From IMG/VR virus record IMGVR_UViG_3300024344_003081: a stretch of 64,000 bases of DNA. One strand, 5' to 3'. The notes beneath the pieces were generated by a model, which saw nothing but the letters and a program-made list of their open reading frames with translations, had not been told where the DNA came from and made no database searches. Positions 2,911 through 62,962 of the stretch are shown piece by piece. Both the position numbers and the translations under genes were made by a program. The stretch comes from a virus. Its lineage: Duplodnaviria; Caudoviricetes. Position 1 is the stretch's first letter. Every line of letters begins with the position of its first letter.

Positions 2911-3999
2911 ATGAAAAACATCAAGTATTATGGCTTGATATGTTTTTTTATTATTATTTCACTTGTACCGATAAACATATCAGCTACAGAAAACAATTTT
3001 GGAGAAGTCGTTGAAAGGGCGAAAAAGTCAGTAGTATTACTGTCTATGAACCCTAGTGATAATCCAGAAACAAATCCAAATTCATCAGGACTATGTTCTG
3101 GTGTAGTTATAGATGATATTGGTCATGTTCTTACAAATTTTCATTGTGTTTATAATCAAAATTTTATAAAATTATATTATTATGATGAAAATGATTGGGC
3201 TGATTATGATGTAAATGTAATAGGTTTAGATCCGCTTGCAGATTTAGCAGTACTTCAAGTCTTAGGAAAAGAAGAACCGATTCCATATCTTAAATTTGCA
3301 GAAAATTCAGATAATATAACATTAGGAACTGATGTTTTTGCATTAGGGCATCCTATGGGAATGGCATGGAGTTTAACTAAGGGAATTGTTTCTAGTAATG
3401 AAAGATATGCTAGACATCCCTTTATTAAAGCAATTCAAACTGATTCTGCAATTAATAAAGGAAATTCGGGCGGTCCTCTTATGAACATGAAAGGAGAAAT
3501 CGTAGGGATTAATGCATTAATTGTTTCTAGAATTTCTGAAAGTGCAGGAATAGGTTTAGCGATTAGAGGTGATATTGCAAAAAAATCTGTTTTATCTATG
3601 TTATCTATTGGAAGAGTTGATAGACCAGCAATTGGTATTATGATTATGGAATTGGTCAATGAGAACTCAAGAAAAAAAATAATGAAAGAATTTCCTAAAC
3701 TTAAAGAAAATCATATTCCAAATACTTATGGAATATTTGTGAGGTCTGATAAAAACCCCAAAGGAATAAAGAAATTTGATACTATTGTTGCAATTAATGA
3801 TATCATGACTAATGGTCAAGTACAATTTTCTGATGAAATAAGTAAATATAATGTAGGAGATATTATTACTTTGACAGTTATACGAAAACGAAGATATTTA
3901 AAAGTTGATATTCCGTTAAAGGTTTTTCCCGTTGATGCTGATGCATTGTATTCAGTAATACGTAGACCAACATTACCAATAGTACCAGAAAATAAATGA
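2911..3999 (+). CDS. HtrA/DegP-family serine protease with PDZ domain
   Basis: Signal peptide; triad motifs TNFHCV, DLAVL, GNSGGPL; C-terminal PDZ-like region. Confidence 0.92.
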   Translation: MKNIKYYGLICFFIIISLVPINISATENNFGEVVERAKKSVVLLSMNPSDNPETNPNSSGLCSGVVIDDIGHVLTNFHCVYNQNFIKLYYYDENDWADYDVNVIGLDPLADLAVLQVLGKEEPIPYLKFAENSDNITLGTDVFALGHPMGMAWSLTKGIVSSNERYARHPFIKAIQTDSAINKGNSGGPLMNMKGEIVGINALIVSRISESAGIGLAIRGDIAKKSVLSMLSIGRVDRPAIGIMIMELVNENSRKKIMKEFPKLKENHIPNTYGIFVRSDKNPKGIKKFDTIVAINDIMTNGQVQFSDEISKYNVGDIITLTVIRKRRYLKVDIPLKVFPVDADALYSVIRRPTLPIVPENK

Positions 4000-32544: not shown

Positions 32545-32885
32545 TATCGATGATACTGTAGAGTAGCATTTAAGACATCGGTGCGATTCCGATCAGCTCC
32601 ACCAAAGGAACATCAATGAGTAGTGCAGATATGGCCATATTAGTAGTATTAATTGTAATTGGCATAATTATGACGGGAACTTATTTTTATTTTGGTGGGT
32701 GATTCTTTGGAGGGGCTGTAATAGAATTCGATTGGATGTGATTATACAGAGGAGATCATCTTGACAGATGTAAAATGTCATTTAAATTAATCGCAAATAA
32801 TAACGATTATTATTCAGCACAAGTGGCATTAGCCGCTTAATCGCTGGCGGGCTTATGATTGTGCCTTGGAACAGAAACAATCAGA
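32545..32885 (+). ncRNA. ssrA: Circularly permuted (two-piece) tmRNA gene: acceptor piece ending 32604, intervening segment 32605-32711, coding piece from 32712
   Basis: 3' piece ...GAC ATCGG TGCGATT CCGAT CAGCTCC ACCA precedes 5' piece GGGGCTG...GAATTCGA; inter-piece helices TTGGATGT/GCATTTAA, TACAG/CTGTA, ATCATC/GATGAT; tag ORF 32793-32840 ANNNDYYSAQVALAA*; outer ends approximate. Confidence 0.92.
32616..32702 (+). CDS. 28-aa single-TM peptide inside the tmRNA intervening segment
   Basis: AAGGAA 5 nt upstream of ATG; MSSADMAILVVLIVIGIIMTGTYFYFGG*. Confidence 0.55.
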   Translation: MSSADMAILVVLIVIGIIMTGTYFYFGG

Positions 32886-58262: not shown

Positions 58263-58585
58263 TTAAAATAATAATTATATTTCTTTTTACATTTGTTGCT
58301 TGTGGTGTCCCGCCCGAAGATTGGAAAGATACTCGACCTAGTGATGAACAATGGATGGCTTCTATGGATGCATCTTTGGAAAAATGGATAGTTGCATCAC
58401 AGTATTTACCTAAAGAAAAACTACAAGGATTACAACGTGCAGGATTTTTTGAAATAGGGGATTCTATTTATTCTCATCATTGTGACAGTCATGGAAATAT
58501 GTTGCGATTAAAATATAATGAAGAAAATAATACATGGAAGCAAATAAAATATGAAACATTAGGATGTGTGGGTTTTGAAGAATGA
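58259..58585 (+). CDS. Hypothetical lipoprotein
   Basis: Lipobox FVAC. Confidence 0.5.
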   Translation: MIKIIIIFLFTFVACGVPPEDWKDTRPSDEQWMASMDASLEKWIVASQYLPKEKLQGLQRAGFFEIGDSIYSHHCDSHGNMLRLKYNEENNTWKQIKYETLGCVGFEE

Positions 58586-59118
58586 AGCAATACAAACGTG
58601 GAAATTATTGGATACAAAAAGTTAAACGTGATTGGAATTCTAAAGCATATATTGACTTTTATGAAAAATATGGACACGAATGGCTCCCAAAACTAATTGA
58701 TCATAAGAGATATAGTGAAATTGGTGAAATACAAATGGAATTTATTGATGGTAAACCAGTAACTTCTGATTATCATTCTTTTGTAATTCAAACTATTTGT
58801 TATACAATTATACCAGCATTTTTTAGTTATTCCATGTATGAACGTTCATATTCTGGAATTACTCATGAAGAATTAGTGTGGAGCTTTATGAGACAAACTG
58901 ATGATTGTAAATTATATTTACATAGAGATTTAAAATTTGAAAATTTCCTTATTGGTGAACACAACAAATTAACATTGGTAGGTATAGATGCATTTGGGTG
59001 GTCATCACTAAAAGAAGTATCATCCCTCAGAGCATGGAAATATAAAGATCAAAAACTTGATGGTGATCTTAAAGTAAAAGGTTCACCATATTTAGATTAT
59101 TCTGATGCTGTACAATAA
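58582..59118 (+). CDS. Minimal protein-kinase-like/APH phosphotransferase, copy 1
   Basis: LPKLID, MEFIDG, HRDLKFENF, IDAFG. Confidence 0.7.
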   Translation: MKQYKRGNYWIQKVKRDWNSKAYIDFYEKYGHEWLPKLIDHKRYSEIGEIQMEFIDGKPVTSDYHSFVIQTICYTIIPAFFSYSMYERSYSGITHEELVWSFMRQTDDCKLYLHRDLKFENFLIGEHNKLTLVGIDAFGWSSLKEVSSLRAWKYKDQKLDGDLKVKGSPYLDYSDAVQ

Positions 59119-60879: not shown

Positions 60880-61383
60880 GTGAAAAAAGAAGGTAATTAT
60901 TGGTATAAAAAAACATTCGAAAAACAATGGGACGTAAAAAGTTATAATGAATTCTATGAAGGTTATGGATCAAGTTTTCTTCCAAAACTCATAGAATACA
61001 ATAATGAATCTGATACTCCTTTTATACGAATGGAATATATTGATGGCAAACACGTTTCTCCAGATCAATATCCAATGGTAATGCAATTTGTTTGTTATAG
61101 AATTATACCATTGTTTTTTAGATACTCTATGTCTGATGTTGCTGATATTAGTCATCAAGAATTTATGGATGGTTTCATAAGACAAAAACGTAAGTGTAGA
61201 TTATATTTTCATACTGATTTGAAATTTGGGAATTTCTTTATTGATAAACAGAACAAAATATATCTACTTGATATTGATTCATTACATTGGACTACTAATG
61301 AATATTTGGAATCAAAATGGTTATATCAAAACCCACTTGCTAAACCTGATCCGAGATACCTGAGTGGTAGTCCCAAAACGTAA
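60880..61383 (+). CDS. Minimal protein-kinase-like/APH phosphotransferase, copy 2
   Basis: LPKLIE, MEYIDG, HTDLKFGNF, LLDID; paralog of 58582. Confidence 0.7.
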   Translation: MKKEGNYWYKKTFEKQWDVKSYNEFYEGYGSSFLPKLIEYNNESDTPFIRMEYIDGKHVSPDQYPMVMQFVCYRIIPLFFRYSMSDVADISHQEFMDGFIRQKRKCRLYFHTDLKFGNFFIDKQNKIYLLDIDSLHWTTNEYLESKWLYQNPLAKPDPRYLSGSPKT

Positions 61384-62025: not shown

Positions 62026-62043
62026 AAAAGGAAATTGGAAAAT

Positions 62044-62889
62044 ATGACTACATTAATTTCACCCCAAGATTTCACCAACGCCACAAATCAACTCAGAACT
62101 TTCTTTAATGACCTCGGATTTCTTGAAGTCCATACGCAAAATCGTCTTTCGATTCTTGCCGCTTGTGAAGATCCAACTACAGTTTCCACTTACGATTATG
62201 CAGGAAATATTTGGCCTCTTCCTCAGACTGGTCAAATGTGGCTGGAATACGAATTACTACAAAATCCCGATTTAAAAGGCGTATACTGTGTATCAACATC
62301 GTATCGACAAGAACAAAATCCAGTAGCAGGAAGACATGATTTGATCTTTCCAATGTTTGAATTTGAAGCACCAGGTACATTTGATGATTTAATAGAGATG
62401 GAAGAAAACTTAGTTTGTCATCTTGGATTCAGACCATGTGTATATCCTATTAAAAGATATACTGAATGGCAAGAAGAATTCAATACAACTGAAGAATTAA
62501 ATCACGAACACGAACAAATGATTTCAGATTCACATACCAACATTCAACAAGCAGGTGTGGGTTTTATTACACATTTTCCCTATACTACATCACCCTTTTG
62601 GAATATGAAGAAAGAAGGAGAATTTGCTAACAAATGTGATGTTATTATAGATGGAATGGAAACTATTGGATCTGCAGAAAGATCCGCTGATACAGTAGAA
62701 ATGAGAGAACAATTTCATACAATATCAGATGGAGAATATGCTAGTTTATTGTACGAATTATTTGGAAAAGAGAGAGTAGAAAAAGAATTAGAGGAATTTT
62801 TAAGTTATGATTTCTTTCCTAGATATGGAGGAGGAATCGGAGTAACAAGACTTATTAGTGCTTTGAAAAATTGTGGAGTGGCGAAATAG
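62044..62889 (+). CDS. Class II aaRS catalytic-domain-only paralog (AsnRS-like / archaeal-type asparagine synthetase family)
   Basis: Motif 1 LRTFF...GFLEV, LPQTGQMWLE, motif 2 SYRQE...RHDLIFPMFEFE, ETIGSAER, motif 3 PRYGGGIGVTRL; no N-terminal OB anticodon domain. Confidence 0.85.
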   Translation: MTTLISPQDFTNATNQLRTFFNDLGFLEVHTQNRLSILAACEDPTTVSTYDYAGNIWPLPQTGQMWLEYELLQNPDLKGVYCVSTSYRQEQNPVAGRHDLIFPMFEFEAPGTFDDLIEMEENLVCHLGFRPCVYPIKRYTEWQEEFNTTEELNHEHEQMISDSHTNIQQAGVGFITHFPYTTSPFWNMKKEGEFANKCDVIIDGMETIGSAERSADTVEMREQFHTISDGEYASLLYELFGKERVEKELEEFLSYDFFPRYGGGIGVTRLISALKNCGVAK

Positions 62890-62962
62890 GTAAACGCAAC
62901 CAGTTGTTTACTGGTCGAGTCGGGGCAGACTTTTGAAGGTTCGAATCCTTCCTCCACAGCCA
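62872..62962 (+). tRNA. Non-canonical tRNA, anticodon GTT (Asn), with long variable arm
   Basis: Acceptor TGTGGAG/CTCCACA + G + CCA; D arm GCG..CGC; anticodon arm ACCAG-TTGTTTA-CTGGT; 19-nt variable region with GAGTC/GACTT stem; T arm GAAGG-TTCGAAT-CCTTC. Confidence 0.85.

What the first reader, a model, noticed from the sequence alone, without database searches (positions are those of the whole stretch)
62872..62962. tRNA with a Leu/Ser-type body, Asn anticodon and U at position 37
All four stems pair well and CCA is encoded, so it does not look decayed. Yet bacterial long variable arms are normally restricted to Leu, Ser, Tyr and Sec tRNAs, and position 37 is nearly always a purine (t6A37 in tRNA-Asn). 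It could mistranslate AAY codons with Ser or Leu, evade anticodon nucleases and modification-dependent defences, or act outside translation.
Basis: partly seen in the sequence, partly recalled or inferred. Interest (0 to 1): 0.65.

Follow-up and report, generated by a model that had tools for sequence, protein, structure and literature searches.

The report
Odd phage tRNA-Asn with enzyme partner
This is a real tRNA kept in many marine phages: it has the recognition marks of an asparagine tRNA on a leucine-tRNA frame, an anticodon loop poorly suited to decoding, and usually a synthetase-like enzyme next to it, so it probably has a specialised, untested job rather than causing mistranslation.

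Summary
Window 62872-62962(+) is a tRNA gene (ARAGORN; Rfam 52.1 bits) with anticodon GUU, U at position 37, a 19-nt variable arm and an encoded CCA.

It is not decayed or misassembled. It belongs to a family of at least 114 distinct sequences in marine phages, including Prochlorococcus phages P-SSM2 and P-SSM7. The cloverleaf is 99% paired, and 16 of 20 pairs show compensatory changes.

Family invariants are G34-U35-U36, G73 and U1-A72, the bacterial asparagine identity set plus the amidotransferase mark. The D arm is leucine-type. Position 33 is non-U in 16% of sequences, position 37 is a purine in only 21%, and the variable region runs from 5 to 41 nt. Ser or Leu mischarging is therefore unlikely.

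In 70 of 80 loci the tRNA lies just 3' of an AsnRS-like catalytic core. That enzyme's bacterial orthologues lack the tRNA. Some sit beside pyrD in genomes without aspartate carbamoyltransferase. Three phage genomes also carry a canonical tRNA-Asn, and two complete ones have the odd tRNA without the enzyme.

I favour, at about 0.37, a dedicated Asn/Asp carrier for the enzyme. A private or nuclease-proof decoder is the main rival. This scan has already reported the same cassette on several other genomes. I found no published study.

The parts
62872..62962 (+). tRNA gene, 91 nt, with anticodon GUU, a leucine-type frame, an asparagine-type acceptor end and an encoded CCA
   Evidence: ARAGORN; Rfam 52.1 bits; family model R1 89.5 bits; covariation
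62904..62910 (+). Anticodon loop UUGUUUA: U33 at 62905, G34-U35-U36 at 62906-62908, U37 at 62909
   Evidence: Sequence and parse. Across the family GUU is invariant, position 33 is U in 96 of 114 and position 37 is U in 86 of 114
62916..62934 (+). Variable arm, 19 nt, with a 4-5 bp stem
   Evidence: Across the family its length ranges from 5 to 41 nt
62035..62889 (+). AsnRS-like class IIb catalytic core with no anticodon-binding domain. The ORF is 284 aa; database copies start at the ATG at 62044 (281 aa)
   Evidence: Pfam PF00152 E 5.4e-19; phrog_29758, function unknown; AlphaFold2 pLDDT 94; best structural matches are AsnRS and AspRS catalytic domains
62872..62889 (+). 18-nt overlap of the enzyme's last five codons and its TAG stop with tRNA positions 1-18; the stop lies in the D loop
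   Evidence: The same -18 overlap occurs in L003, L014, L016 and L074; in other loci the commonest gap is 4-10 nt and the largest is 226 nt

Best explanation
This is a functional tRNA of a phage-specific family. It was remodelled from a tRNA-Leu frame and carries the full bacterial asparagine identity set.

Shown: the cloverleaf is under strong purifying selection. G34-U35-U36, G73 and U1-A72 are (near-)invariant. Nucleotides that matter for decoding (U33, purine 37) and the variable arm are free to change. The gene is co-inherited with an AsnRS-like catalytic core.

Inferred: it is charged as an asparagine acceptor by anticodon-reading host enzymes. These would be AsnRS, or non-discriminating AspRS followed by GatCAB, which reads U1-A72. 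The lack of A37/t6A37 would favour aspartylation. Its aminoacyl form would then serve mainly as a dedicated Asn/Asp carrier for the adjacent enzyme. As an AsnRS homologue, that enzyme should bind the acceptor end.

The enzyme's chemistry is the same as that of its bacterial orthologues. Those are tied to dihydroorotate dehydrogenase in genomes lacking the normal first pyrimidine enzymes. On this reading the tRNA is not a routine decoder and not a mistranslator.
For: Identity set and structure:
- U1 in 48/48, A72 in 47/48, G73 in 48/48 and GUU in 48/48 sequences. In the larger set, 109 of 114 have U1-A72.
- PMC9976931 states that bacterial Asn identity is the anticodon plus G73, that U1-A72 confers Asp-tRNA(Asn) amidation, and that t6A37 blocks aspartylation in yeast.

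Decoding features are relaxed:
- Position 33 is non-U in 18 of 114 sequences and position 37 is a purine in only 24 of 114.

A canonical tRNA-Asn (loop CUGUUAA) coexists in three phage genomes:
- The 98% relative contig C18.
- The complete genomes G160 and G161.

Link to the enzyme:
- P-SSM2 (252 kb) has this as its only tRNA, directly after the enzyme.
- The pair is kept while the flanks vary: 70 of 80 loci, with no third conserved gene.

The enzyme is the same in phages and cells:
- About 105 positions are at least 90% identical across the phage and cellular clades, and only 7 are phage-specific.
- A short branch separates the two clades.

Cellular context:
- pyrD is adjacent in four genomes from two phyla, in both gene orders.
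- Those four genomes plus a related Aureispira genome (L205, no adjacent pyrD found) have PyrB over cut-off in 0 of 5 (14 of 14 controls) and CarB in 2 of 5.
Against: - No charging, expression or enzyme assay exists.
- At least six family tRNAs have no enzyme nearby, and two lie in CheckV-complete phage genomes with no enzyme anywhere. The tRNA can therefore work without the enzyme.
- U33 is still kept in 84% of sequences and U37 is preferred rather than random, so the loop is not evolving freely.
- GUU invariance is also what decoding would give.
- In CPR bacteria the enzyme sits between dus and dnaX, not with pyrimidine genes.
- No chemistry is known by which an aminoacyl-tRNA would feed pyrimidine synthesis.
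- No pyrD was found in 1.35 Mb of phage loci.
Confidence: 0.37

Rival explanations
1. Private or back-up decoder. The adjacent anticodon-blind AsnRS-like enzyme (and/or a host enzyme) charges the tRNA with Asn, and it reads AAY codons on the ribosome. The altered loop (no t6A37, variable positions 32, 33, 37 and 38) and the foreign frame make it insensitive to host anticodon nucleases or independent of host modification. It would then keep phage translation going when ordinary tRNA-Asn is attacked.
For: - GUU is invariant while the flanking loop positions diversify.
- It coexists with a canonical tRNA-Asn.
- It also occurs in enzyme-less phages.
- Precedents exist: phage tRNAs predicted to evade tRNases through loop mutations (PMC10264068), and phage tRNAs overcoming retron and other defences (PMC11555353).
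- t6A37 appears to matter for AsnRS recognition in S. pneumoniae (PMC12632869), which would explain the need for an anticodon-blind charger.
- The enzyme pocket aligns to the AsnRS motif QSSQLYLE.
Against: - A pyrimidine at 37 and non-U33 in 16% of members are expected to cripple decoding of an A/U-rich codon.
- The near-identical bacterial orthologues sit by pyrD, or between dus and dnaX, without any such tRNA. A dedicated charging role would not explain this.
- No nuclease targeting tRNA-Asn is known in these hosts.
Confidence: 0.3
2. Asparagine-supply module. The enzyme is a tRNA-independent asparagine synthetase, as shown for the archaeal AsnRS paralogue that lacks the anticodon domain. 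The tRNA is simply an extra, somewhat degenerate tRNA-Asn charged by the host, raising Asn-tRNA supply for an AT-rich phage.
For: - The enzyme lacks the anticodon-binding domain and has an AsnRS-like pocket.
- From memory (not checked here): Roy et al. 2003 PNAS and Blaise et al. 2011 JMB showed that the archaeal truncated AsnRS paralogue is an asparagine synthetase.
- The window is 32% G+C.
Against: - The family is not close to AsnA or AS-AR: NF005055 scores 20 bits against a cut-off of 389, and AS-AR is absent from the listed structural and profile matches.
- It does not explain the Leu frame, U37 or loss of U33.
- It does not explain why phages that already carry a canonical tRNA-Asn keep this one.
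- pyrD adjacency in genomes lacking PyrB points to another product.
Confidence: 0.14
3. Deliberate mistranslation. SerRS or LeuRS charges the long-arm frame, and Ser or Leu is inserted at AAY codons.
For: The window's copy has a long variable arm, G73 and G2-C71. Serine identity does not depend on the anticodon (PMC9976931).
Against: - G73 is an antideterminant for LeuRS.
- U1-A72 replaces the G1-C72 conserved in bacterial tRNA-Ser.
- C2-G71, an antideterminant for SerRS, is present in 26 of 48 members (rules).
- 11 of 114 members have a 5-8 nt variable loop.
- The D arm is Leu-type, not Ser-type.
- The conserved partner enzyme is Asn-type.
Confidence: 0.04
4. An RNA element that is never aminoacylated: a tRNA-like 3' end that directs RNase P/Z processing or stabilises the enzyme's mRNA.
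For: It lies directly 3' of the enzyme or overlaps it. The stop codon sits inside the tRNA in the window. No separate promoter or terminator stands out above chance.
Against: A processing signal would not need an invariant GUU, G73, U1-A72 and an encoded CCA. The element also occurs without the enzyme.
Confidence: 0.05
5. Decayed pseudogene or assembly artefact.
For: None beyond the unusual loop.
Against: Cloverleaf 99% paired with compensatory changes. At least 114 distinct relatives from independent samples and isolates.
Confidence: 0.01

Closest known systems
Canonical bacterial tRNA-Asn(GUU)
   Same: Anticodon GUU, discriminator G73 and U1-A72, which is the published identity set for AsnRS or ND-AspRS plus the amidotransferase (PMC9976931).
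   Different: Leu-type D arm (3-bp stem, 11-nt loop), a variable region of 5-41 nt instead of 5, U37 instead of A37/t6A37, and U33 not fixed. Canonical copies coexist in the same phages.
Bacterial and phage tRNA-Leu (type II)
   Same: D arm and overall frame. The family model scores tRNA-Leu higher than any other isotype.
   Different: G73 instead of A73, U1-A72, and an Asn anticodon.
Dedicated synthetase paralogue plus anomalous tRNA pairs, such as ProRSx with tRNA-ProX in Streptomyces (Vargas-Rodriguez et al. 2021 PNAS, from memory, not checked here)
   Same: A non-housekeeping synthetase-like gene genetically coupled to a tRNA whose body and anticodon belong to different isotypes.
   Different: Here the enzyme type, acceptor identity and anticodon all point to Asn, so no recoding is implied. 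The enzyme also lacks an anticodon-binding domain and has tRNA-less bacterial orthologues.
tRNAs used as carriers for on-tRNA biosynthesis (tRNA-Sec; Asp-tRNA-Asn in the transamidosome)
   Same: A long-arm or otherwise atypical tRNA that keeps identity marks for a charging enzyme and a tRNA-dependent modifying enzyme (PMC9976931).
   Different: No on-tRNA reaction has been shown here. tRNA-Sec still decodes on the ribosome.
Nuclease-insensitive phage tRNAs (PMC10264068; PMC11555353)
   Same: A phage-encoded isoacceptor with changes in the anticodon loop, coexisting with normal host tRNAs.
   Different: Those keep U33 and purine 37 and a normal frame, and none has a dedicated synthetase-like partner.
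Archaeal asparagine synthetase AS-AR, the truncated AsnRS paralogue (from memory, not checked here)
   Same: A class IIb catalytic core without an anticodon-binding domain.
   Different: Not a close relative by sequence or fold ranking. AS-AR has no partner tRNA.

Membership tests
tRNA (Rfam RF00005) | Cloverleaf with a conserved T loop and D-loop G18G19, scoring above the gathering threshold | tested here: met
   52.1 bits against a threshold of 29; 99% of cells paired, with covariation
Canonical bacterial tRNA-Asn | G34-U35-U36 plus G73 (aminoacylation identity) and U1-A72 (amidotransferase identity) | tested here: met
   identity rules from PMC9976931
Canonical bacterial tRNA-Asn | Class I frame (short variable loop, 4-bp D stem) and A37 (the t6A site) with U33 | tested here: not met
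   19-nt variable arm, 3-bp D stem and U37 in the window. Across the family, purine 37 in 21% and non-U33 in 16%
Bacterial tRNA-Leu | Type II frame with a Leu-type D arm | tested here: met
Bacterial tRNA-Leu | Discriminator A73 and a Leu anticodon | tested here: not met
   G73 in 48 of 48 sequences and anticodon GUU
Bacterial tRNA-Ser | Long variable arm with conserved G1-C72 and G2-C71 | tested here: not met
   U1-A72 is invariant, pair 2-71 is C-G in 26 of 48, and the arm is absent in 11 of 114
allo-tRNA (8/4 or 9/3 acceptor/T-stem geometry; Mukai et al. 2017, from memory) | Non-7/5 acceptor and T stems | tested here: not met
   7-bp acceptor stem and 5-bp T stem
Asparaginyl-tRNA synthetase (partner enzyme) | Class IIb catalytic core with motifs 2 and 3 | tested here: met
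   PF00152; fold matches to AsnRS and AspRS; motif alignment
Asparaginyl-tRNA synthetase (partner enzyme) | N-terminal anticodon-binding domain and a score above the curated family cut-off | tested here: not met
   284 aa, core only; all NCBIfam hits far below cut-off
Asparaginyl-tRNA synthetase (partner enzyme) | Aminoacylation of tRNA-Asn with Asn | not testable with these tools
   Needs a biochemical assay
Asparagine synthetase A / AS-AR | Family-level sequence membership | tested here: not met
   NF005055 scores 20.1 bits against a cut-off of 389

The most novel reading that the evidence does not exclude
The cassette is a tRNA-dependent shortcut into pyrimidine synthesis. The odd tRNA is a carrier insulated from translation. 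Host ND-AspRS and GatCAB would build asparagine on it, guided by GUU, G73 and U1-A72. The AsnRS-like enzyme would take that asparagine, or free Asn/Asp in bacteria, and use ATP to make dihydroorotate or its direct precursor. This would bypass carbamoyl-phosphate synthetase and aspartate carbamoyltransferase. It would be both a new pyrimidine pathway and a new non-ribosomal use of a dedicated tRNA.
Probability: 0.15. Interest if true: 0.95.

Novelty: new variant of a known kind. Interest (0 to 1): 0.72.

Why it matters
The family breaks two near-universal tRNA rules, U33 and purine 37, yet is strongly conserved. It is carried by hundreds of abundant ocean phages, including cultured model cyanophages. 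In P-SSM2 it is the only tRNA in a 252-kb genome.

It is coupled to an enzyme that is nearly unchanged between phages, CPR bacteria, Alphaproteobacteria and Bacteroidota. In some bacteria that enzyme sits beside pyrD in genomes lacking the normal entry steps of pyrimidine synthesis.

Working out what the pair does would show one of three things: a new non-ribosomal use of a tRNA, a new way for phages to protect Asn decoding, or a new route to pyrimidines. Prochlorococcus with P-SSM2 or P-SSM7 gives a laboratory system in which these can be tested directly.

Tried and rejected
- Alignment A3 was too diverse for a genome scan; the smaller alignment A4 was used instead.
- Four distant cluster representatives (P0199, P0153, P0211, P0165) have almost no relatives in IMG/VR. 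The phage clade is therefore the one already sampled.
- I tested whether CPR genomes with the enzyme specifically lack AsnRS. None of 5 has asnS over the cut-off and all 5 have gatB. The background is only 19 of 151 with asnS, and only 2 of 151 have the enzyme, so the comparison is uninformative.
- pyrD and dus were sought in 1.35 Mb of phage loci including the window; none was found.
- No conserved third gene flanks the cassette.
- The genes next to the enzyme-less tRNA in G161 (thymidine kinase, PhoH, HNH endonuclease) gave no clue.
- The promoter and terminator scan showed nothing above chance.
- Seven literature searches found no study of this tRNA or enzyme.
- The window's own assembly is not held. 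The nearest genome, G001, is a Chloroflexota-labelled MAG. Its 28-kb contig C18 is 33% G+C and 92-98% identical to the window end, so it looks like phage DNA, and host inference from G001 was dropped.

Full report
**1. The observation**

ARAGORN finds one tRNA in the 64-kb window, tRNA-Asn (gtt), at exactly 62872-62962(+). Rfam's tRNA model matches it end to end at 52.1 bits, E 2.6e-08.

Read from the sequence, it has these parts:
- A 7-bp acceptor stem starting with U1-A72.
- A 3-bp D stem with an 11-nt loop.
- Anticodon stem ACCAG/CUGGU.
- Loop UUGUUUA, so G34-U35-U36 lie at 62906-62908 and U37 at 62909.
- A 19-nt variable arm, a canonical T arm, G73 and an encoded CCA.

The single-sequence fold is only marginally better than shuffles (z -1.91), so the case rests on comparison with homologues.

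**2. It belongs to a large, selected family**

The tRNA overlaps by 18 nt the end of a 284-aa ORF (62035-62889). That ORF is a class II Asp/Lys/Asn-type synthetase core with no anticodon-binding domain (Pfam PF00152; phrog_29758 of unknown function).

The same gene followed by the same kind of tRNA is present in Prochlorococcus phages P-SSM2, P-SSM5 and P-SSM7. IMG/VR holds at least 595 relatives of the enzyme.

A covariance model built from 48 distinct tRNAs separates the family (55 bits or more) from ordinary tRNAs in those loci (48 bits or less). It finds a member within 226 nt 3' of the enzyme, on the same strand, in 70 of 80 loci. Three of the ten misses have less than 230 nt of flank.

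On the alignment, 99% of cells are paired and 16 of 20 pairs show changes on both sides. The covariation score is 0.709, against 0.208 for shuffles and at most 0.139 for slid partners. This rules out decay and assembly error.

**3. What is conserved and what is not**

I pooled the enzyme-anchored set with an independent scan for the tRNA itself. That scan's pattern required GTT; the enzyme-anchored set did not, and every member of it has GUU. The pooled set holds 114 distinct sequences.

| Feature | Count |
|---|---|
| Pair 1-72 | U-A 109, A-U 4, U.G 1 |
| G73 | all family members (required by the parser in the pooled set; 48/48 in the unfiltered alignment) |
| Position 33 | U 96, A 8, C 7, G 3 |
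| Position 37 | U 86, A 15, G 9, C 4 |
| Variable region | 5 to 41 nt, median 17 |
| CCA encoded | 87 of 114 |

Positions 32 and 38 also vary.

The invariants match the published bacterial asparagine identity set (three anticodon bases plus G73). U1-A72 is the pair that tells the amidotransferase to convert Asp-tRNA-Asn (PMC9976931). The nucleotides that normally matter for decoding, U33 and a purine at 37, are the ones that drift.

**4. The frame is leucine-type**

The family model scores bacterial tRNA-Leu highest among 42 tRNAs of a reference genome: 71.5 and 60.8 bits, against Ser 55.6, Asn 53.4 and Tyr 52.7. The D arm is nearest to tRNA-Leu, including the phages' own tRNA-Leu(UAA). The molecule is therefore a chimera: a Leu frame with an Asn acceptor end and an Asn anticodon.

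**5. Ser or Leu mischarging is unlikely**

[quoted passage not shown] Bacterial tRNA-Ser keeps G1-C72 and G2-C71, and C2-G71 is an antideterminant for SerRS (PMC9976931). This family has U1-A72 throughout and C2-G71 in 26 of 48 sequences. Eleven of 114 members have lost the long arm altogether, and these include close relatives of the window's copy with an identical acceptor stem and D arm.

**6. It is not simply the phage's Asn decoder**

A contig 98% identical to the window end continues 23 kb past it. It carries a canonical 75-nt tRNA-Asn (loop CUGUUAA), tRNA-Asp, tRNA-Tyr and tRNA-Gly, in addition to an identical copy of the odd tRNA.

Two CheckV-complete 195-kb phage genomes likewise hold both a canonical tRNA-Asn and the odd one. 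Conversely, the odd tRNA is the only tRNA in the 252-kb genome of P-SSM2.

**7. The tRNA is not strictly captive to the enzyme**

Of the 118 pattern hits, 89 have the enzyme immediately 5'. Seventeen are unrelated tRNA-Leu-like sequences, and four are family members at contig ends. Six to eight are true family members (67.6-81.4 bits) with no enzyme nearby. Two of these lie in the complete genomes mentioned above, which have no enzyme anywhere. This contradicts earlier notes of this scan that the tRNA never occurs alone.

**8. The enzyme**

The AlphaFold2 model is confident (pLDDT 94). It matches AsnRS and AspRS catalytic domains best (TM 0.70-0.78, 16-23% identity).

In profile alignments the family's PLPQTGQMxLE lines up with AsnRS LTQSSQLYLE, and ETIGSAER lines up with GEIVGGSMR. 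From memory of AspRS and AsnRS structures (not checked here), Leu-Glu in place of the AspRS Lys-Gln marks an asparagine-type pocket.

It is not close to AsnA or AS-AR.

**9. Cellular orthologues change the picture**

GTDB species genomes hold 383 relatives. Most are in Patescibacteria, including complete chromosomes. None of these has the odd tRNA beside it. The odd tRNA appears only on five marine MAG contigs whose enzymes fall in the phage clade of the tree (four placed).

- In CPR bacteria the usual context is dus, then the enzyme, then dnaX (at least 17 loci).
- In two Alphaproteobacteria, a Chitinophagales genome and an Aureispira genome, the enzyme lies directly beside dihydroorotate dehydrogenase, in both gene orders.
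- Those four genomes plus a second, related Aureispira genome (L205, no adjacent pyrD found) are 4-7 Mb in size. They have no aspartate carbamoyltransferase over the cut-off (0 of 5, against 14 of 14 controls). The large subunit of carbamoyl-phosphate synthetase is present in only 2 of 5, and dihydroorotase is over the cut-off in 1 of 5.

A tree splits the phage and cellular enzymes by a short branch. About 105 positions are at least 90% identical across both clades, and only seven are conserved specifically in phages. Five of those seven lie in the N-terminal 14 residues, where class IIb synthetases have their tRNA-contacting hinge (the hinge role is described in PMC12632869). The phage enzyme therefore almost certainly does the same chemistry as the pyrD-linked bacterial one. 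This confirms a lead from earlier notes of this scan.

**10. Reading**

Several facts point the same way:
- The loop is relaxed for decoding but keeps the charging and amidation marks.
- Canonical tRNA-Asn coexists in the same genomes.
- In P-SSM2 it is the only tRNA.
- The pair is tightly co-inherited.
- The enzyme has a metabolic context in bacteria.

I therefore favour, at about 0.37, that the tRNA is charged as an Asn acceptor by host enzymes and serves mainly as a dedicated Asn/Asp carrier for the adjacent enzyme. The absence of A37/t6A37 would favour the Asp route, because t6A37 blocks aspartylation in yeast.

The main rival, at about 0.30, is a private or nuclease-proof decoder charged by the anticodon-blind enzyme. 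This fits the enzyme-less occurrences and the published idea that phage tRNAs escape tRNases through loop changes (PMC10264068, PMC11555353). It leaves the bacterial contexts of the enzyme unexplained.

Lower-ranked readings are an Asn-supply module (0.14), a processing element (0.05), Ser/Leu mistranslation (0.04) and an artefact (0.01).

**11. Novelty and limits**

Seven literature searches found no study of this tRNA or enzyme. GenBank calls the pair 'tRNA ligase' and 'tRNA-Asn'. The same cassette has been reported several times by this scan on other genomes.

The window's own assembly is not held.

Noticed in passing
window 32549-32840 (+): A permuted (two-piece) tmRNA with tag peptide ANNNDYYSAQVALAA, scoring 94.3 bits on Rfam RF04321. 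This is the alphaproteobacterial type, carried by what looks like a pelagimyophage-like phage. A related permuted tmRNA lies beside the cassette in L061.
   Followed up: partly
L127 (G001 contig C18) 1798-1872, 6569-6646, 7113-7197, 8366-8439: The 98%-identical relative carries canonical tRNA-Asn(GUU), tRNA-Asp(GUC) and tRNA-Tyr(GUA), three of the four GUN (queuosine-family) tRNAs, plus tRNA-Gly. The GUN tRNAs are the set targeted by colicin E5-type nucleases.
   Followed up: no
L002 (P-SSM2, AY939844.2), locus 3241-3328 = record 162083-162168: The GenBank tRNA-Asn feature PSSM2_199 is annotated at 164094-164179, inside CDS PSSM2_205. The real gene lies about 2 kb upstream, directly after the 'tRNA ligase'.
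   Followed up: yes
L001 (P-SSM7) 2296-2368: A 73-nt tRNA with the Leu anticodon UAA but no long variable arm. This is the mirror-image oddity, sitting one gene upstream of the cassette.
   Followed up: no
L218, L224, L273, L312, L323 (IMG/VR): tRNA-Leu-like genes with a Leu-type D arm and A73 that carry about 45-50 extra bases after the anticodon region. They may contain introns.
   Followed up: no
L128 = PAAV01000009.1 (MAG labelled Chloroflexota NAT137): This 28-kb contig is 33% G+C and 92-98% identical to the window end, so it looks like phage DNA binned into a bacterial MAG. The MAG's tRNA set also mixes bacterial-like and archaeal-looking genes.
   Followed up: partly
window 58582-59118 and 60880-61383 (+): Two paralogous ORFs (178 and 167 aa) with a weak ABC1 atypical-kinase match (E 3.3e-4 for the second).
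   Followed up: no
L004 2364-2528 and 13 other loci: A small ORF family of about 74 aa lies on the + strand at or after the 3' end of the enzyme gene, reaching into the tRNA in L004.
   Followed up: no
L183 (MAG labelled Neomarinimicrobiota, 29% G+C): Here the enzyme lies beside Erv1/Alr sulfhydryl oxidase and a patatin-like gene, a context more like a giant virus than a bacterium.
   Followed up: no
window 62035-62076 (enzyme residues 5-14): Five of the seven positions conserved only in the phage clade of the enzyme lie in its first 14 residues. This is where class IIb synthetases have their tRNA-contacting hinge.
   Followed up: partly
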